Source of the DNA: a virus
Reading direction: 5' to 3' (one strand)
Virus record (IMG/VR): IMGVR_UViG_3300017783_000001
DNA: 64,000 bases
The notes beneath the pieces are model-generated. The model did no database searches and had not been told where the DNA came from. It was given only the letters and a program-made list of their open reading frames with translations. Below, piece after piece: positions 283 to 54,751 of the stretch. The position numbers and the translations under genes are program-made. Numbering within the stretch: position 1 is the stretch's first letter; the number at the start of each line of letters is the position of its first letter.

Positions 283-946
283 TTCTTTTCTTCGCTAGTT
301 CTTGTTCTATCCATTTCTTTGCGACATAATTTTGAACAGGTTTTCTAACGAGTCCTCTAATTCGTGTGTAAACTTTGTTAAGTGTATCTTCACTTGCATT
401 ATTATTATCAACTACAATCATACTACCAGTACCAAATAGATTTTGAAATCTACCTATATTACTTTGTACAACATTCCAACTCTTCGTTGCAATATTTACA
501 GGCACGGTTCTAGTTCTAACTTTGTTTCTTTGTAATGCAACTTCTAAACTTGTATTTACAAACATCATATAAGTATCGTAACCTAACATTCTTAACATAC
601 TTCTTTGTTTATTAATAATATCATAGTCTCTACCTGTGGCGTCAATGACAAGACCTAATCTATTTCTAATATATAAGTCCATCTGGTCGCCTGTAATTTG
701 TTTTGCTCTCGCTCTTAATGGGTCTCTTTGACCTGCTTCTTTATCTGGCATTTTTAATGAGAGACCTGCCTTCTTTAAATACATTTCAAATCTGACATCT
801 GAATTAACTAATTTTAAACCCATACCAGCAGTTGTTCTATTGGTAACATATGACTTACCAGAACCAGGACCACCTGCTAAAAAGAACGCTTTGAATATAC
901 CTGGGTCGTAAACGCCTTCTTGTATTATGTGTTTAAAAGTTTTCAT
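272..946 (-). CDS. P-loop kinase/NTPase (AAA_33 / zeta-like), conserved in marine T4-like phages
   Basis: Walker A LAGGPGSGKS, LVIDATG, ALQRN..R..R lid motif. Confidence 0.75.
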   Translation of the reverse strand: MKTFKHIIQEGVYDPGIFKAFFLAGGPGSGKSYVTNRTTAGMGLKLVNSDVRFEMYLKKAGLSLKMPDKEAGQRDPLRARAKQITGDQMDLYIRNRLGLVIDATGRDYDIINKQRSMLRMLGYDTYMMFVNTSLEVALQRNKVRTRTVPVNIATKSWNVVQSNIGRFQNLFGTGSMIVVDNNNASEDTLNKVYTRIRGLVRKPVQNYVAKKWIEQELAKKRNAR

Positions 947-1239
947 ACTTTGTATAGAGTATACTTTAAAGTTAACTCTTCTCCTTCTTTTATATCTTCT
1001 AGTGTTTGTACATAATATTTTCCATCAACTTCTATCTTTTGACAATTAGGTTTATCACTATGATTTAAAAAACCACCAAGTGGTGTTCTATAAATTTCTC
1101 TACCCATAGTCAAATGAGAGATACCTAAATCTGTCATCTTATCAATTGTTGCTGTTGCAAATAAACCAAAACCTTCTATTGGCGATAACTTTATTGTTAT
1201 ATTATCAGGTAAAGGTCTATACTTATCTGTCATCTCCAC
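943..1239 (-). CDS. Minimal SET-domain (lysine) methyltransferase
   Basis: SET motifs SPIEGFGLFA, FLNHSDKPN, DIKEGEELTLKY. Confidence 0.85.
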   Translation of the reverse strand: MEMTDKYRPLPDNITIKLSPIEGFGLFATATIDKMTDLGISHLTMGREIYRTPLGGFLNHSDKPNCQKIEVDGKYYVQTLEDIKEGEELTLKYTLYKV

Positions 1240-1540
1240 TACCTTGTATTTTGTTTCTTTCTTGTCTATCTTTTAATTTTTGTAAATTTAATTGTGCGAT
1301 TGTATCTAAATCAATATCTAAATCTCTCGCAAGTGCTGATATGTACCATAACACATCACCTAATTCTTTTTTCATATCTTCTTTAAATGTAGGACTTGCA
1401 CCGTCTCTAATATTCTTTTTAACTTTTTCTGCGACTTCACCTGCTTCACCACATAATCCTAATGCAGGATAAGTTACCTTACTTGCAAGTGGATAAATTG
1501 CTGTGTTTGCAGCTAGAGTTTGGTATTCATTAAATTGCAT
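1223..1540 (-). CDS. mazG: MazG-like NTP pyrophosphohydrolase
   Basis: LGLCGEAGEVAEKVKK and KELGDVLWY motifs. Confidence 0.85.
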   Translation of the reverse strand: MQFNEYQTLAANTAIYPLASKVTYPALGLCGEAGEVAEKVKKNIRDGASPTFKEDMKKELGDVLWYISALARDLDIDLDTIAQLNLQKLKDRQERNKIQGSGDDR

Positions 1541-2129
1541 TTTCTATCTCCTTAATAATGTCTTTCGCAATATCTCCAGGTTCTTTTCCTTCAGCTTTGA
1601 TAGATATAAACCCAGGTCTTTTTTTGTAATGTTCAATGGCAGGTCCTGTTTCTTTTTTGTATAACTGGATTCTATCATTAATAATATCTGGCTTATCATC
1701 TTTTCTTCCTCTCTTTGTAAGTCTTCTAATAACTTCTTCATTACTCACATCAAGGAATACAACAACATCATAAGCGATACCATTTTTTTCCATATCTCTT
1801 ACTTGTTGCATATATCTAGGATAACCATCTAACACATAACCTTTTGAAGCGTCTTTCTCTTGTAATGCTTTCTTCACTAATTTTAAAACTATATCGTTAG
1901 GTGCAAACTTACCTTGGTCTAATAAGTTCTTAATCTTTTGTCCTTCAGGACCACCTTTATCAATTTCTTTTCTTAATAAACCACCTGGGTAAATATGTTT
2001 GATACCAAAGTGTCTTATAATGTATTCACTATAAGTTGATTTACCACTTCCTGGTCCACCCATTATAATAACTCTAGTTTGTTTTGCTTCGTTCAAAAAA
2101 TTGAATAGATATTGTTTAAATGTATCCAT
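1530..2129 (-). CDS. adk: Adenylate kinase (short-LID type)
   Basis: GGPGSGKST, GYVLDGYPR, RGRKDD motifs. Confidence 0.9.
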   Translation of the reverse strand: MDTFKQYLFNFLNEAKQTRVIIMGGPGSGKSTYSEYIIRHFGIKHIYPGGLLRKEIDKGGPEGQKIKNLLDQGKFAPNDIVLKLVKKALQEKDASKGYVLDGYPRYMQQVRDMEKNGIAYDVVVFLDVSNEEVIRRLTKRGRKDDKPDIINDRIQLYKKETGPAIEHYKKRPGFISIKAEGKEPGDIAKDIIKEIENAI

Positions 2130-2130
2130 A

Positions 2131-3345
2131 CTAACCTTTCACCCAATCTTTTGCAATCGTAAAGTTTGCTCTACTAAATTCTAATCTGTCTACAAGTTTA
2201 ACTACATTACCAATCTTATCTGTTGCAACATAACCTTCAGGTGATGTTACCTTAAAACCATTATCGGTTTTTAAAAAGTGTCCGATAGATTGTATCTGTG
2301 CTATTTTTCTTACTACAATGTTTTTGCAATTCTGTAATGTGATGTATGTTGCAATTGCGAAATATAAAGATTGTTTATTTCTTTGAATAAATTTTATGTT
2401 ATCTGCTTTTGCTTTAATATAAGGTGCTTTACCTTTTTCTGTTTTTCTATTATCTATTTCTTTGTCAATGAAACTTGTATAGTATGGTTCAAAACCATCT
2501 ACTAGTTGTTTAACACTACCCATACCTTGTGTACCTCTAACGATACTATTGAAATATGTTTTAATTTTAAAACCTACACTTAACTCGTCTCTACTATCAA
2601 ACTGATTTAACATAGGTCCTGCTTTAGATAAACTACCTTGTGCCATTCTTAACTGAGCATTGAATTGTGAAACTTCAGCACGATTGAAACTTGCACTACC
2701 ACTAGCGTCTTTGTATTCTGCACTTGGTACCCATACACTACCACTTCTGATTCCTCTAACATATCCAAAGTTAGCATTTAATTCTGACATTTTATTACCA
2801 ACATATTGAGTATGAAACACTATGCCCATTCTAGCACGAGCAATCTTACGACCGACAGCACTATTAACAGGCATAGCATATGTTATAGTATTAGGAGTAA
2901 AGGTAATCATTGATTGTCCGTCAATGTTATTCACTTTCTTATCTTCATTAGTAAAGAGACAATCACCTTGGACAATGCCTCTTATACCTAATTTTTTCAA
3001 TTCTCTTAATGCAACTTCTAATTTTGCACCAACACCACCTGGGTGATTTCTTCTTATGTCTGCTGAAGTGTAATTGATTTTAGGAGTTTTATTGAATACA
3101 GATTTTGTACCGACAAAGAATTTGCCGTTTTCAGGATTAGTTCCACATACTATCGCAGGAGCGCCGTCCCACTTAACGGTTACATTTACTCTATTGCTAA
3201 CATTACCTGTTAACATTTTCTGCAAAGATTGTAAGAACGCTATTGCGTTTCTACCGCCTTTGGCACCGTTATTAATTATTTCGTCTTCTAAATGCTCAAG
3301 GTGTGTGTTCGTACCCGAGCTAGAATATCCTTTAAAACTAAACAT
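2131..3345 (-). CDS. Conserved T4-like phage protein (DUF6267-like, possible ligase/nucleotidyltransferase fold)
   Basis: NTHLEHLED, TVKWDGAPA (KxDG), PEGYV, VKLVDRLEFSRANF motifs. Confidence 0.65.
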   Translation of the reverse strand: MFSFKGYSSSGTNTHLEHLEDEIINNGAKGGRNAIAFLQSLQKMLTGNVSNRVNVTVKWDGAPAIVCGTNPENGKFFVGTKSVFNKTPKINYTSADIRRNHPGGVGAKLEVALRELKKLGIRGIVQGDCLFTNEDKKVNNIDGQSMITFTPNTITYAMPVNSAVGRKIARARMGIVFHTQYVGNKMSELNANFGYVRGIRSGSVWVPSAEYKDASGSASFNRAEVSQFNAQLRMAQGSLSKAGPMLNQFDSRDELSVGFKIKTYFNSIVRGTQGMGSVKQLVDGFEPYYTSFIDKEIDNRKTEKGKAPYIKAKADNIKFIQRNKQSLYFAIATYITLQNCKNIVVRKIAQIQSIGHFLKTDNGFKVTSPEGYVATDKIGNVVKLVDRLEFSRANFTIAKDWVKG

Positions 3346-8484: not shown

Positions 8485-9717
8485 TCATAAAAAGTTTTCT
8501 AATGTACCTTTTCTACTACCAGAGAAGAAGTCATAATCCTTAGGACCAAAACACCAAACATTCTCAATATACTTCATTGCCATAAATTCGTTTAGTTCTT
8601 CTTTAGTTTTAAACTTTGCATTTCCTTGAGGTCGTTGCATAATAACCATACCGATTTGACCTAAAAACTTTTCTCTATGTCTATTTATTAACTCATCACT
8701 TGACCTATATCTTACATTCTTAATCTTTGGATCCATAATGTTAACTAACATAAACTTTGATTTGTTCATAGTCTTTTCTGCAACAGGTAAATAGAAGTCG
8801 TCTCTCCACTTCTCATATTCATTGAATTTAAACCACGATTGATTTTCTTCTTTCTCACCACCTTTATTATATTGTTCAGTACTAAAGTATGGTGGACTTG
8901 TAAAGGCACAATCTATATCTGGTAATTCATCATAAGGCAAATCTTCTGCACCACAATTATATATCTTAACTTTTTTATTAGGAAAGAATTTGCTATACTC
9001 TTCAATCTGTTTCATATATTGTTTATATGTGTTAGGGTTTGGGTCGCAACCATAATACTCTTCTGCATTACTACTAAAGAAACCTGCAAGTCTATCACCC
9101 CAACCACAAGAAGTATCTAGTACCGTTCTTGCCTTTGTCATATCATATAAAGTTTTTGCAACAACAGGTTTAAATTGTGTTGCAATATATGTACCTAATC
9201 TAAAGGCACTCATATATGTACCTTCTTTTAAATGTCGTTCACTATTAATACCACGCCAGATAGGACCTAGACAACGCCATACATCTTTTGCATTACCATT
9301 TTGCCATACATCTATAGGTGCTTTGAAACCATAACTACTACAATTTAATCTTAAATGTTGATGAAAATAATTAGATGATATATTATATGTACTAGGAGCG
9401 TCAATCAATCCTAGACCATACTTATCAAAACCATATTCATAATCATCATACTTCTCAAATACTTTCTTTTCAATCTGTTCTTTAGGCGTACATATCTTTG
9501 AAGTATCAAACTTTGATAAGTCAATAATACTTTTTCTCATATCTTCATATGATATTTGTTTGAGAGGAAACTTTGGTCTTTCAGTAGCAATATATTCTGC
9601 TAGTAATTCTCTAAATTTTTCTTTACCTAGTTCTTCTGTCCATCTATCAAACTGGATAGTGTCCATAATAGGCAAACCGTTTTCATCAGCGTATTGTTTA
9701 AGGTCTAGGGTCTTCAT
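8485..9717 (-). CDS. Amino (N4-C/N6-A) DNA methyltransferase
   Basis: SAM motif VLDTSCGWGDRL followed by catalytic FTSPPYF. Confidence 0.8.
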   Translation of the reverse strand: MKTLDLKQYADENGLPIMDTIQFDRWTEELGKEKFRELLAEYIATERPKFPLKQISYEDMRKSIIDLSKFDTSKICTPKEQIEKKVFEKYDDYEYGFDKYGLGLIDAPSTYNISSNYFHQHLRLNCSSYGFKAPIDVWQNGNAKDVWRCLGPIWRGINSERHLKEGTYMSAFRLGTYIATQFKPVVAKTLYDMTKARTVLDTSCGWGDRLAGFFSSNAEEYYGCDPNPNTYKQYMKQIEEYSKFFPNKKVKIYNCGAEDLPYDELPDIDCAFTSPPYFSTEQYNKGGEKEENQSWFKFNEYEKWRDDFYLPVAEKTMNKSKFMLVNIMDPKIKNVRYRSSDELINRHREKFLGQIGMVIMQRPQGNAKFKTKEELNEFMAMKYIENVWCFGPKDYDFFSGSRKGTLENFL

Positions 9718-9795: not shown

Positions 9796-10392
9796 TCAAG
9801 CACCCATACCTGGCCAACCTTCACTTAATCCAAGGTCTTCCCATTTAGTATTACTCTCTTGTACATTTAGGTAAGGAAACTCACCATTGAGTAATTTATA
9901 TTCATCTACATAACTTTTTTCTATCGTATGATAATCTACACTAATGTAATGATATTGATAGTCACCATTCATTTTTTGTATTTGGACTTTAACTTCTGGT
10001 AGATTATAATAATAAACTTCTATTGTTTTACCTGCTTTGACTTGTTGATTGATATAGTTCCATACTGCATAAGTTCTTTTAGAATTACCTTCTCTAAAAC
10101 CACCTAGATAAGCATTGATTGTACCTTCAATACCACCTTTAGTTTGACTACCACCAATCTTAACTATTTTATCATCACAAGTAATAATGTATATTTTACC
10201 ACAGGAATTTTGTCGTTCTTGTTTTGATACTGCAAACTTAACTTTCAATGGTGTTTCTGGTAGATGTAAATAACCTGGGTCTTTATATATCTGTCCTAAA
10301 CATAACCAGTTGTCTAGTTTTAATTGTTGAATTTTATTTTTCTTTGCATATCCTAATTGTTCGGCAAGAGCATTCATACTTCGTTCCCCCAA
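9796..10392 (-). CDS. GIY-YIG family endonuclease
   Basis: GKIYII...VKIGGS, later IEKSY (catalytic E) and PYLNVQE (conserved N). Confidence 0.65.
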   Translation of the reverse strand: MGERSMNALAEQLGYAKKNKIQQLKLDNWLCLGQIYKDPGYLHLPETPLKVKFAVSKQERQNSCGKIYIITCDDKIVKIGGSQTKGGIEGTINAYLGGFREGNSKRTYAVWNYINQQVKAGKTIEVYYYNLPEVKVQIQKMNGDYQYHYISVDYHTIEKSYVDEYKLLNGEFPYLNVQESNTKWEDLGLSEGWPGMGA

Positions 10393-10913
10393 CTATCCCA
10401 ACCTTCTCTCTTCTGTCTTGCAAAGAGTTCAATGTATGGACCGTTTAATAAGTTTTCAATATGTGTATACATTATATCTGGTTTCTTACTATGTCGTTCT
10501 CTTTGTGATACGACTAATTGTGGTACTGATTTAGATTTTCTTTTAGGTTTACCTTTAGTTGCAAGTAAACACATTTCAGGATTACCTCTAGTCCAATATC
10601 CTAAACCTGTAAAGAAACCTAGTTTATTCTTATTTGTTTTTGCCCAAGTAAATCCTACCGTCTTATACTGAAAACCCCAGGCGTCTATTACATCAAATGC
10701 TAAATCTAAACTATGGTCAACAACCCACATCAATAAAGTACAATTGTCATCTGCAATATCTTTTACTGGTAAGTCTGTTATATCTTTAAGTTCTAAAGTC
10801 TGATAGTGTTGACTAGGATTTCTGTCATCACCTTTCGGACTAAACGATTTAAAAGACCACGGTGGGTCTGCATAGATTACACTATACTTTTTTTTCGGTA
10901 AGTTTATACTCAA
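10374..10913 (-). CDS. MT-A70 family adenine methyltransferase
   Basis: IYADPPW, HSKKPD, IELFAR, GWDSWGNE. Confidence 0.9.
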   Translation of the reverse strand: MSINLPKKKYSVIYADPPWSFKSFSPKGDDRNPSQHYQTLELKDITDLPVKDIADDNCTLLMWVVDHSLDLAFDVIDAWGFQYKTVGFTWAKTNKNKLGFFTGLGYWTRGNPEMCLLATKGKPKRKSKSVPQLVVSQRERHSKKPDIMYTHIENLLNGPYIELFARQKREGWDSWGNEV

Positions 10914-24807: not shown

Positions 24808-25956
24808 TTAGGGTTTTTGTAGTATAAAGACTGGCTCGTATTTAGCGCCACTCTCTTGTGATGATAGTTGAAGCTTGTATGTATCAGTATGTTTGAAGCC
24901 TTCCTCAACTGCGATTCGCACCGTATCGTCTTCAAAGGTTTTATGTGATTTGATATTCGCTACATTCAATCCCATAAACTTACCTGGTTTCAATCCTTGA
25001 TAAACATTCTTAATAGTCTCTCGTAAGAAGCCATTGTTCCAATCTTCGTTAGTGCTGAAGTTTTTAAATGATTGTTCAGCGTCATCACTATATTGTTCCC
25101 AATTGAAATACGGTGGACTTGTAAATGCAAAGTCTAGTGTATTCTCTTTAGGTTTAAATGTTTCACTACCTTGTTTATTTAAGAAGTAGTGTCTATTAGG
25201 ATTAGCGTGATTTGCTTTAATTTCTGTTAGTCCTTTAAATGTCAATGTCGCTGGGTCTGTACCTACATAGTTAATATCTGAAATCATTGCACCAAGTATA
25301 CGACCACCATAACCCATACTCATATCCCAGACTAGTTCTCCAGGTTGCATAAAGTTTTGATATAAACAAGCAGCTGCTGTTGGTCTGAAATTAGATACAC
25401 ATTGAGTACCTGTATATCTTCTTAATAGACTTCGCATTGTACTTTCTGCTTTGTGTTTTGCTTGGTCGCTTGTATGTGTCTCATTACCATAGATGTCATA
25501 TGAAATAGGTTTCAATTGATTTACTGAATACTTACCAAAGAAAGAACCAGTTAATAGTTTCTTAATACCTTTCTTAAAGTGTTCTTCGTTCTCATATATC
25601 TCCATAGGAGTTTTCATCTTACCACATCTAATACCAAAACTATGTGGCATATAAGACCAAGCAAGTGATAGACCTTCTTGGTGTGGTTTGATTACTTTAT
25701 CTTGTGTCAATAAATCTTTACAATTTACAGCAGATAGTTTAGCAAACTTTTCTTTTCTCCATTGTTCGTCTACAGAATAATAAGGAAAGCCTCTAGTCTG
25801 CCAATACTCATAGACTTCATCTATGTTTCTTTCTAGTTCAGCTTCATCGGTTACAACACCTTTGAGATTACCTTTACTTGTGATATTCTCTTCGCCTTGT
25901 ATGTCAACAAACGCTTCTAGTGAAGCACTACCTTTTGTATCTGTAAGTTTTTTCAT
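24808..25956 (-). CDS. Amino DNA methyltransferase (same family as 8485-9717)
   Basis: VSNFRPTAA, WDMSMGYGGR, FTSPPYF. Confidence 0.8.
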   Translation of the reverse strand: MKKLTDTKGSASLEAFVDIQGEENITSKGNLKGVVTDEAELERNIDEVYEYWQTRGFPYYSVDEQWRKEKFAKLSAVNCKDLLTQDKVIKPHQEGLSLAWSYMPHSFGIRCGKMKTPMEIYENEEHFKKGIKKLLTGSFFGKYSVNQLKPISYDIYGNETHTSDQAKHKAESTMRSLLRRYTGTQCVSNFRPTAAACLYQNFMQPGELVWDMSMGYGGRILGAMISDINYVGTDPATLTFKGLTEIKANHANPNRHYFLNKQGSETFKPKENTLDFAFTSPPYFNWEQYSDDAEQSFKNFSTNEDWNNGFLRETIKNVYQGLKPGKFMGLNVANIKSHKTFEDDTVRIAVEEGFKHTDTYKLQLSSQESGAKYEPVFILQKP

Positions 25957-25959
25957 ATT

Positions 25960-26262
25960 CTATTGTCCACTCATATCTGATTTACCGGTGCCTTTAGGTC
26001 CATTTACTGGAACTTTGTCACCATATTCTACGGTTGCATTGCCGTAGGCTTCTTGTTGTCTTATAGAAGTTAAATCAGGAAGAGGTGCTGTACCTTTGTC
26101 TTTACCGGATTCTACTTCTTGTTTATTAAATCTAGGTTTTCCTGATTTGTCTAAACTGCCGACATTCAATGGAAATCCAGGTCTTAACTTCTCTACTTTG
26201 CCACCTCTTTTTAAAAACTCTTCAACGGTTTCTTTTTTCATAGGTATTTCTTTTTGTACCAC
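25960..26262 (-). CDS. Hypothetical protein
   Basis: ETVEEFLKRGGKVEK motif typical of small phage proteins. Confidence 0.6.
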   Translation of the reverse strand: MVQKEIPMKKETVEEFLKRGGKVEKLRPGFPLNVGSLDKSGKPRFNKQEVESGKDKGTAPLPDLTSIRQQEAYGNATVEYGDKVPVNGPKGTGKSDMSGQ

Positions 26263-26387
26263 GCATAGAATCTTTTATCAGTAAAGTATTCTGCAATCGC
26301 ATTAGCAGGAACTTGGTCACTTCTAATACAATCTGCTACATCCTGATAGTCTGTTATATCTACTTTGTGTTGTGTTTTCATTTTCAT
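26238..26387 (-). CDS. Hypothetical protein (49 aa)
   Basis: MKMKTQHKV...DCIRSDQVPA...; start shortened because a separate ORF occupies 26389-26547. Confidence 0.55.
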   Translation of the reverse strand: MKMKTQHKVDITDYQDVADCIRSDQVPANAIAEYFTDKRFYAWYKKKYL

Positions 26388-26388
26388 A

Positions 26389-26547
26389 TTACTTAATGTT
26401 ATTAGTGTTCTTCTTCTTTTTTCCTTCTCGTAGGATTCGTCCATAATTAGGCCACCCAAACTTATCAGGACTTTCGCCAACATATCGCCAACGAATAACA
26501 CCTGTGTTTGGATTCCTTTCGTATATTTTTTCTTTATTTTTATTCAT
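26389..26547 (-). CDS. Hypothetical protein (52 aa), not in ORF track
   Basis: MNKNKEKIYERNPNTGVIRWRYVGESPDKFGWPNYGRILREGKKKKNTNNIK*; tiles between neighbours. Confidence 0.55.
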   Translation of the reverse strand: MNKNKEKIYERNPNTGVIRWRYVGESPDKFGWPNYGRILREGKKKKNTNNIK

Positions 26548-26557
26548 AGTACTTATT

Positions 26558-27253
26558 CTACACTACTTTCCCAAACTTGTCAAGCAGGTCTAAACGATTA
26601 AAGTATGATTTATCAAAAACCTCTTTGTCTAGTTCAACTCCAATATATTGTCTTCTCATTTCTTTTGCAATCCAAGGTACAATACCACTACCAGCAAATG
26701 GGTCAAATACTATTTGATTCTCTTTTGATAGATAATCAACTATAAGTTTAATAAAATTATCGTTCCACACATATAGATTGAAAGGACCTTTGATATTACC
26801 TAGTCTTTTTGTTTCATATACTAATATATTCTTTAACCAGTCACCACCTCTTTTGATAGTACCTTTCTTTGTAAATACAAGTGTATGTTGATAATTGAAG
26901 TAATACATATCTCTTTTTTCAACAGGTGTATTTCTTACCATTATCTTATAGTCTTTTAATTTAAAACCATTTCTTATCATTGCTTGATGATATGTTATAT
27001 GGTTAGGTAGTATCTCACCATTAATCTTTCTATCTGTTTGAGATATAACTACAAAACCTTCATCTTTCGTAATTCTTGCCATCTGGTCGCAACTTCTATT
27101 TTGAAACTCTTGGTATTGTTCTATGTCTTTACCCCACGGACCTTGTGATATATCAGGTAAACTAGTAAAGGTCAAATCAATACTCTTGTCTGCTACTTTA
27201 GGAAATATATCAAAAGCGTCACCGTGATGAAACTTATTAACTACATCTTTCAT
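26558..27253 (-). CDS. Class-beta methyltransferase with atypical catalytic motif
   Basis: HGDAF, DLTFTSLPD (in place of SPPY/DPPY), VFDPFAGSG, IGVELD. Confidence 0.75.
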   Translation of the reverse strand: MKDVVNKFHHGDAFDIFPKVADKSIDLTFTSLPDISQGPWGKDIEQYQEFQNRSCDQMARITKDEGFVVISQTDRKINGEILPNHITYHQAMIRNGFKLKDYKIMVRNTPVEKRDMYYFNYQHTLVFTKKGTIKRGGDWLKNILVYETKRLGNIKGPFNLYVWNDNFIKLIVDYLSKENQIVFDPFAGSGIVPWIAKEMRRQYIGVELDKEVFDKSYFNRLDLLDKFGKVV

Positions 27254-27789
27254 TTCTTTATCTCCGGTATATAATATGCAAAGTGTATCAATCTTCTATT
27301 CCCACTTCCGTTGTTTGCTCTATGTTCAAATTGAGGCGATTGATTTAACCAGACAAATTGTCCTGGTCTACAGAATATTCTACACTTACTTACACCATAT
27401 GGTATGCCATCTTTATCTAAAATGTCTTCACCTGCAATCTCAATATAGTTTTCATTCATATCGTTACCTTCATCTAGGTATACTAATATGTTTGAATTAA
27501 ATTTATCTCCTGCAACAAAGTCATTATGAAATTCATTATTCTCTTTGGTTACTCCGTTCCACAAACCAGGTTCTTCTGTAAGTTCAAATTTAGGATATGT
27601 TTCTGATATAACTTCTTCTAGTTGTTCTTGTACTTTCTTAATCTCTTGTTTACAATTATCAGGTAGTTTTAAGTCTTCAGGATTGTAATCAATACTAGGA
27701 AACTTTACATCATCAAATAGTTGTACATTAATATCTACATCACCTGTATAAAAACCATCTTTAAAAAATGTTGTCATATCATACTTCAT
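27250..27789 (-). CDS. 2OG-Fe(II) oxygenase
   Basis: FHND...ILVYL...FEHRA...RRLIHF (HxD...H...R). Confidence 0.75.
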   Translation of the reverse strand: MKYDMTTFFKDGFYTGDVDINVQLFDDVKFPSIDYNPEDLKLPDNCKQEIKKVQEQLEEVISETYPKFELTEEPGLWNGVTKENNEFHNDFVAGDKFNSNILVYLDEGNDMNENYIEIAGEDILDKDGIPYGVSKCRIFCRPGQFVWLNQSPQFEHRANNGSGNRRLIHFAYYIPEIKK

Positions 27790-28685
27790 TGTATACCTCC
27801 GGTTATTTCGTGTACTTCACTTTGATTTAGTCTTCTACCAACACACCAGAATACATTAGTACCTTCATATATGTTTATGTTCTCGGTCATCCATTTATGT
27901 GCTTTTGCTTCGTATAAGTCATCTAACATAAATGATTTTTCTTTAGGATAGTACTCTTCTGAATCCGTGTAGTTAGGATTTGTTATCTCCGTTTTCAGAG
28001 GAGTACTATAACTAGTTTTAGGTGTGTGAAATTCAAAAGGATAATCATTTTGTTCTATGCCAAAATAACTTCTTATATTCTTTGTTCTATCAGGTCCTAC
28101 ACCGACACCGATAACTCTTTTTACTTTCTTATTATATTTCTTTAAACCATACATTACTGCTGACATCTGAATACCTACACCACAACTCATAACTAAATTG
28201 TCTATTTCATCTGGTAAGTTTTGCACTTGTTCGCCATTAGTCTCTAACATCAATTCAGGTTCTTCCATAATCCATTTATCAAAAGATGTATAGAAGTATT
28301 TTTCTTTTTCTATAATATCTTTTGTTCTCTTTGCAAGTACACTATTGATACCGTGTCCTGCAACTATTCTTATCTCTCCACCATAGTATTGTGCAAGGTG
28401 CATTATATGGCGTTTTTGTAATGTTTCAGGTTTAGTACCACCAACTGCAAATATTGATTTAAAACCAAACTCTTTTGCAACTCTACTGATAACACTAGCG
28501 GTAGGACTATGTACTGAAACAGATTGTATAACTCCGTTATTGTGTTCATTTTTTATCCTGTCTTTATATTTTTCAAACAAGGCAATCGTTTGTCTCATTT
28601 TGCCACCATTGACATCACCATATGGAGCAAACAAATCGTCTCGTTTATAATATATATTATCGTATTTTTCTATGGGCGTCAGCAT
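27786..28685 (-). CDS. PLP-dependent enzyme (fold type II, ACC deaminase/D-Cys desulfhydrase-like)
   Basis: TPIE...KRDDL...GGKMRQ (PLP Lys), SCGVG phosphate loop, LDDLYEAKA. Confidence 0.8.
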   Translation of the reverse strand: MLTPIEKYDNIYYKRDDLFAPYGDVNGGKMRQTIALFEKYKDRIKNEHNNGVIQSVSVHSPTASVISRVAKEFGFKSIFAVGGTKPETLQKRHIMHLAQYYGGEIRIVAGHGINSVLAKRTKDIIEKEKYFYTSFDKWIMEEPELMLETNGEQVQNLPDEIDNLVMSCGVGIQMSAVMYGLKKYNKKVKRVIGVGVGPDRTKNIRSYFGIEQNDYPFEFHTPKTSYSTPLKTEITNPNYTDSEEYYPKEKSFMLDDLYEAKAHKWMTENINIYEGTNVFWCVGRRLNQSEVHEITGGIQ

Positions 28686-29856
28686 TAAATAATTTTCTCA
28701 CTTTATCATTTGCAACAACATCAATAACTAAATGTGTTCTCCATTCGTCACCATTGTTAATTGCCATATGTGGTTTTCTAATATCTAGGTACCAGCAACT
28801 TCCTTCTTCCATATTAGTCATCACTTTAGTACCTGAAGTAGACCAACTTGTAAACTCTACATCTGGATTTGTTTTGATAGGTATATGTATTCTCATTAAT
28901 CTACCATCTGCAATTCCTAGGTCTGGGTCTACTTGGTCTGTATGTCTTTGTAATTCTCCACCACCTGGTTTCAAATTCATAAATCTTACTCTATGTATTT
29001 CTGTTTCAAATACATCTAATATCTTTTCTACTAGAGGAAACTTCTTACGCCAATCTGTATCTTGTAATTCAAATTGTTCATCTTTGTTTTCTTCTTTCCA
29101 CTTCTTATTCATTTCTACAGGTTTTGTAATAAACTTATAATCAGAAGAATAACCTCTTAATGAGATTGCACTCCAAGACTTTGCTTTGTTGTAGTTTGAA
29201 TAGTGATTAGTAAACTCTACTTCCATATCGTGTAATTGTTTTGCAAGTTGTTTTGTAATATCATCAAACGATACATTCATAGGTTTCAATGTATACTTCT
29301 CATAGACAGGTATTTTTGGGTGTTGTCTATCTTCTAATACATTACCTGCGTGTCTAAAATAAACTCCTATAATATCTGCAACTGAATTAAACTTACTACC
29401 TACATAATCAAATCCTGTCTCACTTGCGATATGTTTATCAGGACCACTTTCTTCATTAATAAACAACCATACATTATTGTTAATATATTGTGTATCTTCC
29501 ATTAATGTTGTAATAATATTTCTTTTATCAAATTCGTCTGTATAACCTAGATGTTTAATATGAATATCGCCAGGTAGTTTAGTACCTATCAATACACCAG
29601 GAAACATAAAGATATTAGATTTAACTTTTACTTGTGAATAGTGAATAAGACCTTTACCTAATAGTTGCAATTCATCTTTAGATAATGCTTCTGCAATATT
29701 GTTCTTCTTAAACTTGCTCATTTCGTGCTGAGCATAGTCATTATAAGAAGTAAATCTTTTTTCTAAATCTTTTAAATAATCTATTTGGAATCCTTTTTGC
29801 CAAGGTTTACTTTCTGTGGCTGGGACTCCTTCATTGCTTTTTGGTATCGTTTCCAT
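28657..29856 (-). CDS. GNAT-like domain fused to an Asp/Asn beta-hydroxylase-type oxygenase
   Basis: C-terminal RVRFMNLKPGG...RHTD...RIHIPIKTN...KPHMAIN...RTHLVID; the N-terminal GNAT call is weaker. Confidence 0.7.
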   Translation of the reverse strand: METIPKSNEGVPATESKPWQKGFQIDYLKDLEKRFTSYNDYAQHEMSKFKKNNIAEALSKDELQLLGKGLIHYSQVKVKSNIFMFPGVLIGTKLPGDIHIKHLGYTDEFDKRNIITTLMEDTQYINNNVWLFINEESGPDKHIASETGFDYVGSKFNSVADIIGVYFRHAGNVLEDRQHPKIPVYEKYTLKPMNVSFDDITKQLAKQLHDMEVEFTNHYSNYNKAKSWSAISLRGYSSDYKFITKPVEMNKKWKEENKDEQFELQDTDWRKKFPLVEKILDVFETEIHRVRFMNLKPGGGELQRHTDQVDPDLGIADGRLMRIHIPIKTNPDVEFTSWSTSGTKVMTNMEEGSCWYLDIRKPHMAINNGDEWRTHLVIDVVANDKVRKLFNADAHRKIR

Positions 29857-30653
29857 TTTTTCATCTCCTTTTCTGCCTTACGATATGCTAAGTCTAATTT
29901 TAGTTTGCTAACTTTCTGAACCATTAACTCACCTTTTTGGTGGTCGTATTCGTGTTGGCATACTCTACTCATCATACCATCTAAATGTGCTTCTTTTAAA
30001 TCTCTATTCTCGTCTTCGTATTTCATAACACATTTACGAGGTCTATTAATACTAACAAATAAAAAAGGAAAAGTCAAGCAGCCTTCTTTCATTAGTACAT
30101 CTTCACTACTGGTCTGTATAATTACTGGATTAAAGGCCGCTATCTTCAATCCTTTTTCTATTGATTCGTGGTCTCCTGCAACAAACATATTGAAAGGTAA
30201 CCCAATCTGTATCGCACTTAAACCGATACCACCATATTTGTGCATAAGAGCAAACATACCGTCCACAAGTTCTTGTCTACTTTTTAGACCATACTCTTCT
30301 AGCATTTCATCTTTGAAAGGTGCTACAGGTTGTCTAACTCTTGGATCCTGTGGTGGTAATAATTCGTATTGAAATGATTTAGGGTCTATACCTTTTCTAA
30401 TTTCAACATCTTTATTCTTATCTGTCATATCTTCAACAAAGCCTTGGTCTCTTTGTTCATTTAATTTTTTCATAATATCTTTGTTATCAATCCATTGACC
30501 ATCTTCTTGTTGTTCAACTTCACCTTTTTTAATCATACCTTCTGCTTGTTTCATCAAGTCATCTTTAAACTTTTCTTCTTCTGCAACAGACATTCTTTGT
30601 CTATCACCTGTATGAACAGCAGTAGTTGGATTATCTTTTAAATCTTTAGACAT
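29781..30653 (-). CDS. def: Peptide deformylase with N-terminal extension
   Basis: GIGLSAIQIG, EGCLT, QHEYDH. Confidence 0.92.
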   Translation of the reverse strand: MSKDLKDNPTTAVHTGDRQRMSVAEEEKFKDDLMKQAEGMIKKGEVEQQEDGQWIDNKDIMKKLNEQRDQGFVEDMTDKNKDVEIRKGIDPKSFQYELLPPQDPRVRQPVAPFKDEMLEEYGLKSRQELVDGMFALMHKYGGIGLSAIQIGLPFNMFVAGDHESIEKGLKIAAFNPVIIQTSSEDVLMKEGCLTFPFLFVSINRPRKCVMKYEDENRDLKEAHLDGMMSRVCQHEYDHQKGELMVQKVSKLKLDLAYRKAEKEMKKWKRYQKAMKESQPQKVNLGKKDSK

Positions 30654-52659: not shown

Positions 52660-52860
52660 TTATAATTTTCCGTGAGGGTCGCTATAATCATTCTCCCCTT
52701 TATCGTCTTTTTTATCTAAATACCAACACATTATCACTAACAATAGACCAAATCCGATAAGACTTTGTAAAAATGGTTCGTGTTTCAACATAAACCACAA
52801 GATTTGTAGACCATTTGCACCATCAACTATCAACCAATCTATCTCTTCTTTTATGTTCAT
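52660..52860 (-). CDS. Small membrane protein
   Basis: Hydrophobic segment LIGFGLLLVIMCWYL; overlaps the ALAS stop. Confidence 0.55.
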   Translation of the reverse strand: MNIKEEIDWLIVDGANGLQILWFMLKHEPFLQSLIGFGLLLVIMCWYLDKKDDKGENDYSDPHGKL

Positions 52861-54050
52861 TTCTTTTTACCACATCTTCTCATTGCAGATTTTACTTTAA
52901 CTACCATATCAAATATCATTGTATCTGTATGAAATGGTGTAGGCGTAAATCTTAATCTTTCAGTACCAACAGCAACCGTAGGATAGTTAATAGGTTGTAC
53001 ATAGATACCATCTTTATAAAGTAATTCATCTGAAACTGCTTTACATTTTTTAGCGTCACCTATAATTACCGGTACAATATGACTATCGTTTTGTAATACT
53101 TCTATACCTTGTCTTGTTAATTCTTCTTTTGTTTTTTGTGCTCGTTCTTGTAGTTTTTCTCTTAATTCAGGATGGTCTTTAACATACTTAATACTCGTTA
53201 ATGCACCAGCACATAGTACAGGCGATAAACTAGTTGTAAATATAAACGCACTTGCCATACTTCTAATTGCGTCTATAAACTCTCTCTTTCCACAAATGTA
53301 ACCTCCCTGTACACCATAGGCCTTAGCTAATGTTCCATTGATAATATCAACATCAACTTTATCTCGTTCACAAATACCAGCACCGTTAGGTCCGTATAAA
53401 CCAACTCCGTGTACTTCATCAATATAAGTTATTGCATTATACTTTTTACATACTTCAACAATTTCTTTTACAGGTGCAATATCACCGTCCATAGAATATA
53501 CACTTTCAAATACAACACATTTAGGTCCTGGGTTAGACATTAATATACTTTCTAAATCTTGTACATCATTATGTTTAAATATTTCTTTTCTACATTTACT
53601 ATGCCTTAAACCTTGTATGATTGAAGAGTGATTTTGTGCGTCTGATATAAACAACAAATCAGGCATAATCTTGCCCATTGTTTCTAAAGTTGTTTGATTA
53701 GCATTGTATGCTGAAGTGAATAATAACGCACTTTCTTTGCCGTGTAATTGAGTTAATTCGTGTTCTAAAGCAATGTGATAGTGAGTTGTGCCGGAGATGT
53801 TTCTCGTCCCTCCAGCGCCCGCTCCGCTCGTCTCCAGTGCTGTTTTCATACTATCTAGCACATAGGAATGTTGTCCCATACCTAGATAATCATTTGAACA
53901 CCAGTTAACTATTTTTTTGATTGAGTATTTTGAATACCAGATTGCGTTAGGATAACTACCTCTGGTTCGTAGGATATCATTGAATACACGGTATCTACCG
54001 TCATCTTTTAATTCTGTTATTACTTGTTTAAACTTGTCTAAATGTTCCAT
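52857..54050 (-). CDS. hemA: 5-aminolevulinate synthase (Shemin pathway)
   Basis: WCSNDYLGM, GGTRNISG, ESVYSMDGD, DEVH, TLAKAYG, YVQPINYPTV; start MEHLD at 54050. Confidence 0.95.
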   Translation of the reverse strand: MEHLDKFKQVITELKDDGRYRVFNDILRTRGSYPNAIWYSKYSIKKIVNWCSNDYLGMGQHSYVLDSMKTALETSGAGAGGTRNISGTTHYHIALEHELTQLHGKESALLFTSAYNANQTTLETMGKIMPDLLFISDAQNHSSIIQGLRHSKCRKEIFKHNDVQDLESILMSNPGPKCVVFESVYSMDGDIAPVKEIVEVCKKYNAITYIDEVHGVGLYGPNGAGICERDKVDVDIINGTLAKAYGVQGGYICGKREFIDAIRSMASAFIFTTSLSPVLCAGALTSIKYVKDHPELREKLQERAQKTKEELTRQGIEVLQNDSHIVPVIIGDAKKCKAVSDELLYKDGIYVQPINYPTVAVGTERLRFTPTPFHTDTMIFDMVVKVKSAMRRCGKKK

Positions 54051-54751
54051 TATTCCACATAAGGAAATAAAGCGTCTGTACAAAATTCTTTTACATCATC
54101 TTCAGGTAAACCTAAACTTAACATAACTCTTGGTGTATGTGGATTTTCTCTTTGATGTTTTGCGTATCTGTTTTGTGCGTCTTTGATTTCCTGTAAGTCT
54201 CCTACTTCTTTGTTTCTTCTTAATAATGTAAAGTATACTTGTAAGTTTGATTGTGCCATACTTAATGCTTGTGTTAATTCTTTTTCAGTATTAATATTGC
54301 CGGCTGCAATCATACCTGGACTAAAAATTTTCATCGCCCAATCAGGTAATGGTCTAGGTTTTGATGGTGTATAAAGACTTGCTTCTTTTACAAACCAATC
54401 TACCATTGAATGGTCTCTTTTTGCAAGAGGAGAAAAGTCGTGGAAGAAACCTGTAACCTTTTTTGCACCTGCGATTACATCTAATCCAAATATAGGTGCT
54501 TCACTTGTTAGATTAGGAAACACGCAACAATGAAACATAAACAAACCTTTTTCGTCTCTAGCGTCAACTACATCTAAATGACATCTTCTTGCTTCAGGTG
54601 TTTTCCATACTCTATTGACCCAACCTTGTTCTGGTCTATTAAACTTCTTCATTGCAGGTTCAAATATCTCTTCACCTTCTCTTTCAAAATTTGCAATAAT
54701 ACTATGAGTGTGTTGCTCAAGCATTTCCCATATTCTACTTCTTCGTTCCAT
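54050..54751 (-). CDS. pcyX: Ferredoxin-dependent bilin reductase (PcyX/PcyA-like)
   Basis: RRCHLDVVD, HCCVFP, PIFGLDVIAG, FHDFSP, LPDWA..IFS, QRENPHT. Confidence 0.85.
   Translation of the reverse strand: MERRSRIWEMLEQHTHSIIANFEREGEEIFEPAMKKFNRPEQGWVNRVWKTPEARRCHLDVVDARDEKGLFMFHCCVFPNLTSEAPIFGLDVIAGAKKVTGFFHDFSPLAKRDHSMVDWFVKEASLYTPSKPRPLPDWAMKIFSPGMIAAGNINTEKELTQALSMAQSNLQVYFTLLRRNKEVGDLQEIKDAQNRYAKHQRENPHTPRVMLSLGLPEDDVKEFCTDALFPYVE

What the first reader, a model, noticed from the sequence alone, without database searches (positions are those of the whole stretch)
24808..29856. Tailoring-enzyme cluster (GNAT+AspH oxygenase, PLP enzyme, 2OG oxygenase, TSLPD MTase, SPPY MTase): candidate new DNA hypermodification pathway
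Seen: four overlapping or abutting genes for chemical tailoring enzymes (26558-29856) directly downstream of gp46/PDF, then three tiny ORFs and an SPPY MTase. Known: thymidine-hypermodifying phages (ViI, M6, PaMx11 types) use PLP enzymes and acetyltransferases to remodel amino acids attached to DNA bases. Inference: this set could decarboxylate, hydroxylate, acylate and methylate a base adduct. The non-canonical TSLPD motif suggests an amine substrate other than adenine/cytosine. No dU-hydroxymethylase or amino-acid:DNA transferase is recognisable in this window, so the scaffold is either encoded elsewhere or novel. A small-molecule or protein substrate is also possible.
Basis: partly seen in the sequence, partly recalled or inferred. 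Interest (0 to 1): 0.72.

Follow-up and report, generated by a model that had tools for sequence, protein, structure and literature searches.

The report
Methyltransferase-centred phage DNA hypermodification module
An abundant marine T4-like phage carries a conserved, mobile gene set (two DNA-methylase-like enzymes, a vitamin-B6 enzyme of the only family known to trim amino acids hanging on DNA, and an acetyltransferase-hydroxylase fusion) that most likely builds an undescribed complex modification on the phage's DNA by a route unlike the known thymidine pathways.

Summary
They are an SPPY methyltransferase (MTase), an MTase with TSLPD in place of SPPY, a small probable 2OG oxygenase, a PLP enzyme, and a GNAT + AspH-type oxygenase fusion.

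- **PLP enzyme.** It is not a bacterial D-cysteine desulfhydrase. It aligns over its full length with ViI gp226 and M6 gp52, the two characterised decarboxylases of amino acids attached to DNA, and shares their Schiff-base lysine.
- **Conserved core.** The core is a triad of the TSxPD MTase, the PLP enzyme and the SPPY MTase. It appears in two gene orders, at different genome positions in distant T4-like phages, and as natural fusions.
- **Accessory genes.** The GNAT-AspH fusion is present in only some lineages. Its nearest relative in a cultured phage sits beside an amino-acid:DNA transferase in mycobacteriophage LilMcDreamy. The small oxygenase is not conserved with the set.
- **Missing parts.** I found no hydroxymethylase, TET/JBP or amino-acid:DNA transferase in the window or in 109 kb of a close relative.

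I read this as a post-replicative DNA hypermodification module built around amino-MTase-like enzymes. The chemistry is not shown; one possibility is a SAM-derived amino(carboxy)propyl group.

The scan had already flagged MTase-PLP pairs on other DNA. I found no paper describing the module.

The parts
24808..25956 (-). MTS: SPPY-type amino-methyltransferase-like protein, 382 aa. Class-I Rossmann MTase core (about residues 185-382) behind a helical N-terminal region.
   Evidence: Motif I D211-S-x-G-x-G-x-R and F278-TSPPYF-x2-E-x-Y-x5-QS are invariant across 16 relatives. N6_N4_Mtase scores 21.9 bits, below its cut-off; phrog_12517 at 2.5e-15. Model pLDDT is 84; the best structural matches are Trm11/TrmN m2G MTases at Z 17.5-17.7. 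A relative lies within 7 kb of the MT2 gene in 11 of 18 lineages.
25960..26241 (-). Small ORF, 93 aa by the JGI call, function unknown.
   Evidence: Gene call. Conserved at 76-85% in L003-L007. No confident family.
26238..26483 (-). Small ORF, 81 aa by the JGI call. It more likely starts at the internal Met near 26387.
   Evidence: In the zone that overlaps the 52-aa ORF, the substitution pattern fits the other frame.
26389..26547 (-). Small ORF, 52 aa, basic, function unknown.
   Evidence: 75-98% identical in L003-L007. Substitutions are third-position-biased in this frame. A sigma-70-like site lies just upstream at 26583-26555.
26558..27253 (-). MT2: beta-class N6/N4 amino-MTase-like protein with motif IV changed to TSLPD (family motif [ST][SG]xPD).
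   Evidence: PF01555 at E 1.1e-19. T30, S31, P33, D34 and D184-P-F-A-G are invariant in 10 relatives. The xPD motif runs through a large family, while canonical (D/S)PPY proteins score lower. A PLP gene is adjacent in 13 of 18 lineages.
27250..27789 (-). Probable small 2OG-Fe(II) oxygenase, 179 aa. An accessory gene, not conserved with the module.
   Evidence: No Pfam or NCBIfam hit; phrog_19592 at 8.8e-5. Atlas neighbours partly carry PF13640. Absent from L008, L009 and L014, and replaced or duplicated in L006 and L007.
27786..28685 (-). Fold-type II PLP enzyme of the ViI gp226 / M6 gp52 family, 299 aa.
   Evidence: hhalign over the full length: ViI-type gp226 99.8% (E 1.5e-27), Vincenzo gp2 99.6%, M6 gp52 97.5%. 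K29 is invariant and aligns with gp226 K92 and gp52 K36. The nearest solved structure is only ACC deaminase 1j0a at E 7.5e-7.
28657..29856 (-). GNAT-fold domain (about residues 24-173) fused to an AspH-type Fe(II)/2OG oxygenase (about residues 181-385), 399 aa.
   Evidence: PF05118 at E 4.6e-13. Model and fold matches. H305, D307, H363 and R373 are invariant in 31 relatives. 27.5% identical (E 6e-27) to LilMcDreamy gp4.
8485..9717 (-). Second MTS-family paralogue (410 aa), 15 kb away, of the type that sits directly beside AspH-PLP-MT2 in L008 and L039.
   Evidence: hmmsearch with the MTS profile, E 1.3e-92. A second MTS lies a few kb from the module in L042, L044, L046, L049, L050, L053 and L101. 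Alignment of both types.

Best explanation
This is a phage module for post-replicative hypermodification of DNA bases. It is expressed with the replication and recombination genes.

Its conserved core has three parts:
- an SPPY amino-MTase-like enzyme (MTS);
- a second amino-MTase-like enzyme whose catalytic motif is [ST][SG]xPD instead of (D/S)PPY (MT2);
- a PLP enzyme of the gp226/gp52 family.

**Shown here:** family memberships, intact cofactor and metal motifs, conserved linkage, natural fusions, and the absence of the known thymidine scaffold genes in the DNA searched.

**Inferred working model:**
1. One MTase-like enzyme flips a base and puts a SAM-derived group carrying a free alpha-amino acid or amine on an exocyclic nitrogen, rather than (or besides) a methyl group.
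2. The PLP enzyme processes that amino-acid moiety, by homology through decarboxylation. It does so either on DNA or on the SAM-type donor.
3. The second MTase-like enzyme methylates the resulting amine or the base.
4. In this phage lineage the GNAT-AspH fusion then hydroxylates and perhaps acylates the side chain.

The likely benefit is resistance of phage DNA to host nucleases.
For: 1. **PLP family.** The PLP299 family aligns end to end with ViI-type gp226 (hhalign 99.8%, E 1.5e-27) and with M6 gp52 (97.5%, E 6.8e-12). Both were shown to decarboxylate amino acids attached to thymidine in DNA (PMC8989533). K29 aligns with their named Schiff-base lysines K92 and K36. Solved bacterial enzymes are far more distant: ACC deaminase at E 7.5e-7 and CysK at about 1e-4.
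2. **Linkage.** Of 18 MT2 lineages (80% identity clusters) in IMG/VR, 13 have an adjacent PLP gene, in two opposite orders. Eleven have an MTS gene within 7 kb. The pair persists at 35% identity and in MAG contigs.
3. **Fusions.** L116 holds an MTS-PLP open frame of 580 aa. P0303 is an HNH-repeat + MTS + MT2 protein. Mycobacteriophage Vincenzo has a ParB + MTS-like gp1 followed by PLP gp2.
4. **Mobility.** The module sits after gp46 here and in the distant L071, beside gp43 in L008, and beside gp44 in L009.
5. **Variable tailoring genes around a fixed core.** These are GNAT-AspH here, a glutamine-synthetase-like protein in L071, and a hexapeptide transferase and an ATP-grasp protein nearby in L009 and L008.
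6. **AspH relative.** The only cultured-phage relative of AspH399 is LilMcDreamy gp4. It lies next to gp3 (Pfam ADDT, amino acid:DNA transferase, E 2.7e-12), a weak TET/JBP-like gp2 and a ParB-like gp1. That architecture is published as T-hypermodification machinery (PMC13229309).
7. **Other DNA N6-adenine MTases beside PLP relatives.** A D12 Dam-type MTase in L122 and a type I HsdM in L121.
8. **Timing.** There is no late promoter (TATAAATA) between 20.8 and 37.2 kb, although such sites precede the late genes elsewhere in the window.
Against: - No chemistry was measured; every step of the mechanism is inferred.
- Five of 18 MT2 lineages have no PLP gene within 7 kb, and the MTS-MT2 fusion P0303 has none nearby. 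The MTase-like proteins can therefore work without the PLP enzyme and may simply methylate.
- A PLP relative occurs alone in G003 (126 kb), with the only PF01555-like match about 65 kb away.
- MTS relatives stand alone as ordinary annotated DNA methylases in Vibrio, Bacteroides and Staphylococcus phages.
- The closest structural matches of MTS are tRNA m2G methyltransferases, so an RNA target is not excluded.
- By inspection of the sequence and the alignment consensus, the GNAT domain lacks the usual Q/RxxGxG/A CoA loop.
- About a quarter of the genome was not searched for scaffold genes.
Confidence: 0.55

Rival explanations
1. Cofactor tailoring. The PLP enzyme does not touch DNA. It converts SAM (or a by-product) into another donor, for example decarboxylated SAM. 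MT2 then uses that donor, much as CmoA makes carboxy-SAM for carboxymethyl transferases or SpeD feeds the MTase-fold aminopropyl transferases. The end product could still be a non-methyl DNA mark.
For: PLP and MT2 genes are tightly coupled and often overlap, in two orders. SAM is itself an alpha-amino acid attached through its side chain, like the substrates of gp226 and gp52 (PMC8989533). A phage DNA MTase homologue that uses a modified SAM has been published (PMC12783734 abstract). MT2-only lineages could draw on another source of the donor.
Against: The only characterised members of the PLP family act on DNA-borne adducts. No SpeD was found in G002, G003, G006, G007 or G008 to supply MT2-only phages, though those records are small or partial. 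MT2 keeps a canonical DPFxGSG SAM motif.
Confidence: 0.15
2. Plain methylation plus bystanders. MTS and MT2 are ordinary m6A/m4C DNA methyltransferases used against restriction. The PLP enzyme, the GNAT-AspH fusion and the small oxygenase are unrelated auxiliary metabolic genes that share a variable region of T4-like genomes.
For: MTS relatives occur alone as annotated DNA methylases. MT2 occurs without PLP in 5 of 18 lineages, among nucleotide-metabolism genes. The phage carries many auxiliary genes, including ho1, pebS, a desaturase and PDF. An earlier scan check also weighed this reading (e1-3446300).
Against: PLP-MT2 adjacency is kept in two orders, at several genome positions, down to 35% identity and in fusions. 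The PLP family's known members are DNA-adduct enzymes. The catalytic PPY of MT2 is replaced by xPD throughout a large family, which argues for a changed substrate or reaction. The AspH relative sits in a T-hypermodification operon.
Confidence: 0.15
3. The target is not DNA. The module modifies RNA (tRNA, rRNA or mRNA ends), a protein, or a free amino acid or polyamine.
For: MTS's best structural matches are the tRNA m2G MTases Trm11/TrmN at Z 17.5-17.7. (D/N/S)PPY enzymes also methylate RNA and protein glutamine (general knowledge). The oxygenase domain's best matches are free-proline hydroxylases and protein AspH. PDF and ribosomal protein S21 genes are nearby.
Against: MT2 passes the Pfam threshold for DNA N6/N4 methylases. 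MTS-like and MT2 genes are fused or adjacent to ParB, to HNH repeats and to a C5 DNA methylase. PLP relatives neighbour Dam and HsdM. The PLP family's characterised members act on DNA.
Confidence: 0.1
4. Classical thymidine hypermodification. The module tailors an amino acid installed on 5-hmdU by a kinase and an amino-acid:DNA transferase that are encoded elsewhere in the genome.
For: Homology of the PLP enzyme to gp226/gp52 and of the AspH fusion to LilMcDreamy gp4. A P-loop kinase (Zeta_toxin/AAA_33) lies at window 272-946. About 34 kb of the genome was not searched.
Against: No ThyA-family hydroxymethylase, ADDT or TET/JBP match in G002 (109 kb, the closest held relative) or G003. ViI gp243 kinase, ViI gp247 AADT and LilMcDreamy gp2/gp3 find nothing in the window by tblastn. 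The P-loop kinase is shared with HTVC008M and Melnitz phages. No cultured marine phage matched AspH399 at E <= 1e-5, and the one Pelagibacter record in the DNA search covered only 2% of the region. Whether HTVC008M or Melnitz hold the PLP or MT231 genes was not checked directly.
Confidence: 0.05

Closest known systems
ViI gp226 and M6 gp52: PLP-dependent decarboxylases of amino-acid:thymidine conjugates in DNA (Lee et al. 2018, PMC5889632; Lee et al. 2021, PMC8989533)
   Same: Same protein family over the full length. The Schiff-base lysine aligns, and all share the C-terminal Y-E/D-x-K...W...FW-x-V/I-G block. All are phage-encoded and sit among DNA-metabolism genes.
   Different: PLP299 is about 100 residues shorter than gp226. 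Its partners are amino-MTase-like proteins, not a 5-hmdU kinase plus an amino-acid:DNA transferase. No 5-hmdU source was found.
ParB-dependent T-dioxygenase / AADT operons (PMC13229309); example examined here: mycobacteriophage LilMcDreamy gp1-gp4
   Same: LilMcDreamy gp4 is the nearest cultured-phage homologue of the AspH fusion (E 6e-27; the HxD...H and Arg motifs align). In both cases the protein is the last gene of a DNA-modification cassette.
   Different: LilMcDreamy has ParB, a TET/JBP-like gene (weak Pfam hit) and ADDT, and no PLP enzyme or MT2. The window has none of those three.
PaMx11 gp48, a GNAT acetyltransferase of 5-aminomethyl-dU in DNA (PMC8989533)
   Same: A GNAT-fold domain sits within a phage DNA hypermodification gene set.
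   Different: No sequence similarity was tested. Here the GNAT domain is fused to an oxygenase and lacks the usual CoA-binding glycine loop (inspection).
Beta-class N6-adenine/N4-cytosine DNA methyltransferases (Pfam PF01555)
   Same: MT2 has the fold, the domain order and the SAM-binding DPFxGSG motif, and passes the Pfam threshold.
   Different: The catalytic (D/S)PP(Y/F) motif is [ST][SG]xPD. The stacking aromatic residue is replaced by Asp across a large subfamily.
CmoX DNA cytosine C5-carboxymethyltransferase of Synechococcus phage S-B43 (PMC12783734)
   Same: A precedent, in a marine phage, for an MTase homologue that puts a non-methyl, SAM-analogue-derived group on DNA as a handle for further modification (abstract).
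   Different: It belongs to a different MTase class (C5) and uses a different donor. That paper mentions no PLP enzyme.

Membership tests
gp226/gp52 family of PLP-dependent DNA-adduct decarboxylases | Full-length sequence homology to ViI gp226 and M6 gp52 | tested here: met
   hhalign 99.8% (E 1.5e-27) to the ViI-type orthologue moki_206 and 97.5% (E 6.8e-12) to M6 gp52. BLASTP to ViI gp226 itself gives E 1e-27. phrog_3650 at E 1.8e-36.
gp226/gp52 family of PLP-dependent DNA-adduct decarboxylases | Schiff-base lysine at the position named for gp226 (K92) and gp52 (K36) | tested here: met
   K29 in 'NGGKMRQ' aligns with K92 in 'NGSKLRQ' and K36 in 'SFSKIRG'. It is invariant in 29 relatives.
gp226/gp52 family of PLP-dependent DNA-adduct decarboxylases | Decarboxylation of an amino acid attached to a base in DNA | not testable with these tools
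   This needs an enzyme assay.
Thymidine hypermodification pathway (5-hmdU -> kinase -> AADT -> tailoring) | A source of 5-hmdU (dUMP hydroxymethylase of the ThyA family, or a TET/JBP T-dioxygenase) | tested here: not met
   No PF00303 or PF12851 match in G002 (109 kb, near relative), G003 or the other records. About a quarter of the genome was not covered.
Thymidine hypermodification pathway (5-hmdU -> kinase -> AADT -> tailoring) | Amino-acid:DNA transferase (Pfam ADDT / aGPT-Pplase) | tested here: not met
   No real PF18724 match; the single weak hit in G003 has 4 stop codons. ViI gp247 and LilMcDreamy gp3 find nothing in the window.
Thymidine hypermodification pathway (5-hmdU -> kinase -> AADT -> tailoring) | 5-hmdU DNA kinase | tested here: inconclusive
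   ViI gp243 finds nothing in the window. The window's P-loop kinase (272-946) is shared with HTVC008M and Melnitz, and no cultured marine phage matched AspH399. No profile of the 5-HMUDK family was available.
N6/N4 DNA amino-methyltransferases (PF01555), for MT2 (26558-27253) | Pfam score above the gathering threshold, and SAM motif I | tested here: met
   71.7 bits against a cut-off of 26.7. D184-P-F-A-G-S-G is conserved.
N6/N4 DNA amino-methyltransferases (PF01555), for MT2 (26558-27253) | Catalytic motif IV (D/N/S)-P-P-(Y/F/W) | tested here: not met
   The motif is S-L-P-D here and [SG]-x-P-D across the family. Canonical DPPY/SPPY proteins appear only among the lower-scoring hits.
N6/N4 DNA amino-methyltransferases, for MTS (24808-25956) | Motif I and motif IV SPPY; family-model score | tested here: inconclusive
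   The motifs are present and invariant. PF01555 scores only 21.9 bits, below the 26.7 cut-off. The fold is a class-I MTase nearest to the m2G tRNA MTases. A Vibrio phage relative (33% identity) is annotated as an N4-cytosine methylase.
AspH-type Fe(II)/2OG oxygenases (PF05118) | HxD/E...H iron triad, a 2OG-binding Arg, and the jelly-roll fold | tested here: met
   H305, D307, H363 and R373 are invariant. PF05118 scores 49.7 bits against a 22.6 cut-off. Fold matches: 4p7x at Z 15.6 and AspH at Z 14.9.
GNAT acyltransferases | GNAT fold | tested here: met
   Residues 24-173 match 2pc1_A (Z 12.1, rmsd 3.2, 142 aligned), 2fia_B (Z 10.9) and several others.
GNAT acyltransferases | Acyl-CoA pyrophosphate loop Q/R-x-x-G-x-G/A between beta4 and alpha3 | tested here: inconclusive
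   By inspection, the loop at 104-110 reads G-Y-T-D-E-F-D, with no glycine-rich motif in the consensus. No cofactor docking was done.

The most novel reading that the evidence does not exclude
One of the MTase-like enzymes transfers the 3-amino-3-carboxypropyl end of SAM, or the aminopropyl group of decarboxylated SAM made by the PLP enzyme, onto an exocyclic nitrogen of a DNA base instead of a methyl group. The gp226-like PLP enzyme supplies the decarboxylation. The xPD enzyme N-methylates the new aliphatic amine. The GNAT-AspH fusion beta-hydroxylates or acylates the chain. The result would be a cationic N-aminopropyl-type purine or cytosine hypermodification, a DNA base chemistry not yet described, carried by some of the most abundant T4-like phages in the ocean.
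Probability: 0.17. Interest if true: 0.9.

Novelty: new variant of a known kind. Interest (0 to 1): 0.68.

Why it matters
Known phage hypermodifications that use PLP decarboxylases all start from 5-hydroxymethyl-dU and an amino-acid:DNA transferase. This module keeps the PLP enzyme but swaps the scaffold for amino-methyltransferase-like proteins. That points to a second, independent way of hanging amino-acid-derived groups on DNA, possibly on adenine, cytosine or guanine nitrogens.

The genes are common in marine metagenomes. Single 90%-identity clusters were seen on 210-294 contigs of up to 173 kb. The modification would therefore affect how a large share of ocean phage DNA is read by restriction enzymes, sequencing chemistries and host defences.

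The enzymes would also be new tools for site-directed functionalisation of DNA. The question is directly testable by co-expression and nucleoside mass spectrometry.

Tried and rejected
- **Complex prediction, PLP299 with MT231:** no verdict (score 0.00, below the mark). It is not evidence either way.
- **P-loop kinase at 272-946 as a candidate 5-hmdU kinase:** rejected. It is shared with HTVC008M, Melnitz and other phages, and no cultured marine phage matched AspH399. ViI gp243 does not match the window.
- **7-deazaguanine route:** the preQ1 methylase DpdM belongs to DUF3109 and is unrelated to MT2. The 'queuine tRNA-ribosyltransferase' label on LilMcDreamy gp2 has no Pfam support; its only match is a weak Tet_JBP hit.
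- **SpeD as a donor source for MT2-only phages:** not found in five records, which are too small to be informative.
- **Whole-genome search:** the window's own assembly is not held, and the 144-kb JGI contig could not be searched. G002 served as a proxy.
- **The search for related loci with the 29-sequence MT2 alignment:** failed because no stretch was conserved enough. It worked with 10 sequences.
- **Literature:** searches for an aminocarboxypropyl or aminopropyl DNA modification, or for this gene set, found nothing relevant. Iyer et al. 2013 (NAR 41:7635) is not held, so I could not check what it says about ParB-MTase loci.
- **DNA-level search of cultured phages:** no relative of the cluster.

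Full report
**What the window is.** The window comes from a 144,087-bp marine T4-like myophage contig (JGI Ga0494206_0000001). It is 32% G+C and every gene lies on the minus strand. Its cultured relatives are the Pelagibacter and Methylophilales myophages HTVC008M, Mosig and Melnitz. It also carries ho1, pebS, S21, HSP20, a desaturase and PDF.

Reading 5' to 3' on the minus strand, downstream of gp47, gp46 and PDF, the genes are:
- a 399-aa protein (28657-29856);
- a 299-aa PLP enzyme (27786-28685);
- a 179-aa protein (27250-27789);
- a 231-aa N6_N4_Mtase (26558-27253);
- two or three small ORFs;
- a 382-aa SPPY protein (24808-25956).

These calls come, and the genes overlap or abut. No T4-type late promoter (TATAAATA) lies between 20.8 and 37.2 kb, although such sites sit just upstream of late genes elsewhere in the window. 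The cluster is therefore probably expressed with the replication and recombination genes.

**The PLP enzyme.**
- Against Pfam it is only a borderline PALP match (34.5 bits). Against solved structures it reaches only cysteine synthase or ACC deaminase, at E 1e-5 to 1e-7.
- It hits PHROG 3650 at 1.8e-36. Of its 347 matches among cultured phages, most by organism name are phages of enterobacteria: Salmonella 160, Klebsiella 44, Escherichia 29 and Dickeya 19, alongside 61 Vibrio records. The one I examined, phage moki, is a Kuttervirus (Ackermannviridae).
- moki_206 is the syntenic orthologue of ViI gp226 (YP_004327553).
- A profile of 29 relatives aligns over the full length with the gp226 type (hhalign 99.8%, E 1.5e-27), with mycobacteriophage Vincenzo gp2 (99.6%) and with M6 gp52 (97.5%, E 6.8e-12).
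- The invariant K29 aligns with gp226 K92 and gp52 K36. Lee et al. named these two residues as the Schiff-base lysines (PMC8989533).
- Both reference enzymes were shown there to decarboxylate an amino acid already attached to thymidine in DNA.

**The 399-aa protein.** AlphaFold gives a confident model (pLDDT 91.5).
- Residues 24-173 have a GNAT fold (2pc1_A: Z 12.1, rmsd 3.2, 142 aligned, plus several other GNATs).
- Residues 181-385 are a 2OG oxygenase, closest to proline hydroxylases and human AspH (Z 14-15.6).
- H305, D307, H363 and R373 are invariant in 31 relatives.
- By inspection the GNAT domain lacks the usual glycine-rich CoA loop, so its activity is open.
- Its only relative in cultured phages is LilMcDreamy gp4 (E 6e-27). 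That gene follows gp3, a Pfam ADDT (amino acid:DNA transferase, E 2.7e-12), gp2 (a weak TET/JBP hit) and a ParB-like gp1. This architecture is published as T-hypermodification machinery (PMC13229309).

**The two methyltransferase-like proteins.**
- *MT231* passes the Pfam threshold and keeps DPFAGSG. TSLPD sits exactly where T(D/S)PPY belongs. In an exhaustive search this [ST][SG]xPD variant characterises a large family, and canonical PPY enzymes appear only lower in the list.
- *The 382-aa protein (MTS)* has motif I and an invariant FTSPPYF-x2-E-x-Y-x5-QS block. It folds as a class-I MTase whose best matches are the m2G tRNA MTases Trm11 and TrmN (Z 17.5-17.7, against 14-16 for generic MTases).
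- MTS relatives in Vibrio, Bacteroides and Staphylococcus phages stand alone and are annotated as DNA methylases.
- A second MTS paralogue lies at 8485-9717.

**Conserved linkage.**
- Twelve IMG/VR loci found with the PLP protein and 78 found with an MT231-family alignment were scanned with profiles built here.
- At 80% identity the MT2 genes form 18 lineages. Thirteen have an adjacent PLP gene, 11 have an MTS gene within 7 kb, 4 have the AspH fusion, and 5 have no PLP gene.
- There are two gene orders. Marine relatives show MTS-[AspH]-PLP-MT2. A 39-47%-identity group shows MT2-PLP-MTS(long).
- In L071 the second order follows gp47-gp46 and is followed by a glutamine-synthetase-like protein.
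- The module sits beside gp43 in L008 and beside gp44 in L009.
- The pair persists at 35% identity.
- Fusions exist: an MTS-PLP frame of 580 aa (L116) and an HNH-repeat-MTS-MT2 protein (P0303). Vincenzo encodes a ParB + MTS-like gp1 followed by the PLP gp2.
- In MAG contigs, PLP relatives sit next to a Dam-type MTase (L122) and at the head of a type I HsdM-HsdS unit beside an integrase (L121).
- The 179-aa probable oxygenase is not conserved with the set.

**What is missing.**
- No ThyA-family hydroxymethylase, ADDT or TET/JBP was found in G002 or in G003. G002 is a 109-kb record 82-97% identical in these proteins, which by my mapping covers the window plus about 46 kb more.
- ViI gp243 and gp247 and LilMcDreamy gp2 and gp3 find nothing in the window.
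- The P-loop kinase at 272-946 also occurs in HTVC008M and Melnitz. No cultured marine phage matched AspH399. I did not check directly whether those two phages hold the PLP or MT231 genes.

**Interpretation.** The evidence fits a post-replicative DNA hypermodification module whose scaffold is an amino-MTase-like enzyme rather than 5-hmdU/AADT.
- The argument for a non-methyl group is logical, not experimental. A gp226-type enzyme needs an amino acid with a free alpha-amine. In the minimal MTase-like + PLP pairs and fusions, the only evident source is SAM, either as a 3-amino-3-carboxypropyl donor or as a substrate for decarboxylation.
- The Asp for Tyr change in MT2 would suit an aliphatic ammonium better than a stacked base.
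- AspH-type enzymes hydroxylate the beta-carbon of amino-acid residues (general knowledge).
- On the other side, MT2 and MTS occur without the PLP enzyme, and a PLP relative occurs far from any MTase-like gene in G003. Plain methylation with a helper enzyme, or an RNA target, therefore remain live alternatives.

**Novelty.**
- My literature searches found no description of this gene set.
- Earlier notes of this scan had independently flagged MTase-PLP pairs and fusions in other genomes, and a very similar marine T4-like module. One later check priced the SAM-amino-acid reading at about 15%.
- I treat those notes as leads only. Here I re-derived the linkage, the fusions and the fraction of MT2 genes without a PLP partner.
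- I class the finding as a new variant of a known kind (phage DNA hypermodification).

Noticed in passing
window 8485-9717 (-): A second SPPY-type MTS paralogue (410 aa, E 1.3e-92 to the MTS profile) lies between uvsX and a 179-aa MT-A70 methylase (10374-10913). With MT231 and MTS, the phage therefore encodes four DNA-methylase-like proteins.
   Followed up: partly
window 272-3345 (-) and beyond the window start (L024): A run of nucleotide-related genes: Zeta_toxin/AAA_33 P-loop kinase, a 96-aa SET-domain protein, MazG, adenylate kinase and DUF6267. Just outside the window lies a 974-aa PAP2 + cytidylyltransferase fusion.
   Followed up: partly
window, all 12 TATAAATA sites: Every TATAAATA lies on the coding (minus) strand, mostly just upstream of a gene start (for example 37253, 41189, 58919, 63060). 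None lies between 20.8 and 37.2 kb. The total count is not above chance, but the placement looks like T4-type late promoters.
   Followed up: partly
window 29781-30653 (-): The peptide deformylase carries an acidic/basic N-terminal extension of about 100 residues and a lysine-rich tail. Its last 76 nt overlap the start of the GNAT-AspH gene, whose conserved N-terminus (K17, W19, G22 invariant) shows the overlap is real.
   Followed up: partly
L015 (Mycobacterium phage LilMcDreamy) 855-2665: gp2 is annotated 'queuine tRNA-ribosyltransferase', but its only Pfam match is a weak Tet_JBP hit. gp3, annotated 'hypothetical', is a Pfam ADDT amino-acid:DNA transferase. Together with ParB-like gp1 and the AspH-like gp4, this looks like a ParB-dependent T-hypermodification operon.
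   Followed up: partly
L106 8001-10040 (protein P0303): A 679-aa protein on a 148-kb phage contig fuses HNH repeats, an MTS catalytic domain (SSPPYF) and an MT2 domain (MSPPDVSE). Two HNH-repeat proteins lie upstream.
   Followed up: partly
L071 10157-11380: A glutamine-synthetase-like protein (407 aa, weak Gln-synt_C hit) directly follows the MT2-PLP-MTS triad in a 44% G+C T4-like contig. It is a possible amide-ligase tailoring step.
   Followed up: no
L121 4576-9661 and L118 4578-8054 (Bacteroidales MAG contigs): PLP relatives (about 31% identity) sit between a tyrosine integrase and, respectively, a type I HsdM-HsdS unit or a NYN-domain gene. The family therefore also travels on integrative islands with restriction-modification genes.
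   Followed up: partly
window 52857-55394 (-): A class I/II aminotransferase (about 400 aa) sits directly beside pebS (Fe_bilin_red) and heme oxygenase.
   Followed up: no
L009 4358-4666: In one distant marine relative, a small cytochrome c-like protein (Cytochrome_CBB3, E 3e-8) is encoded between the MTS and AspH genes of the module.
   Followed up: no
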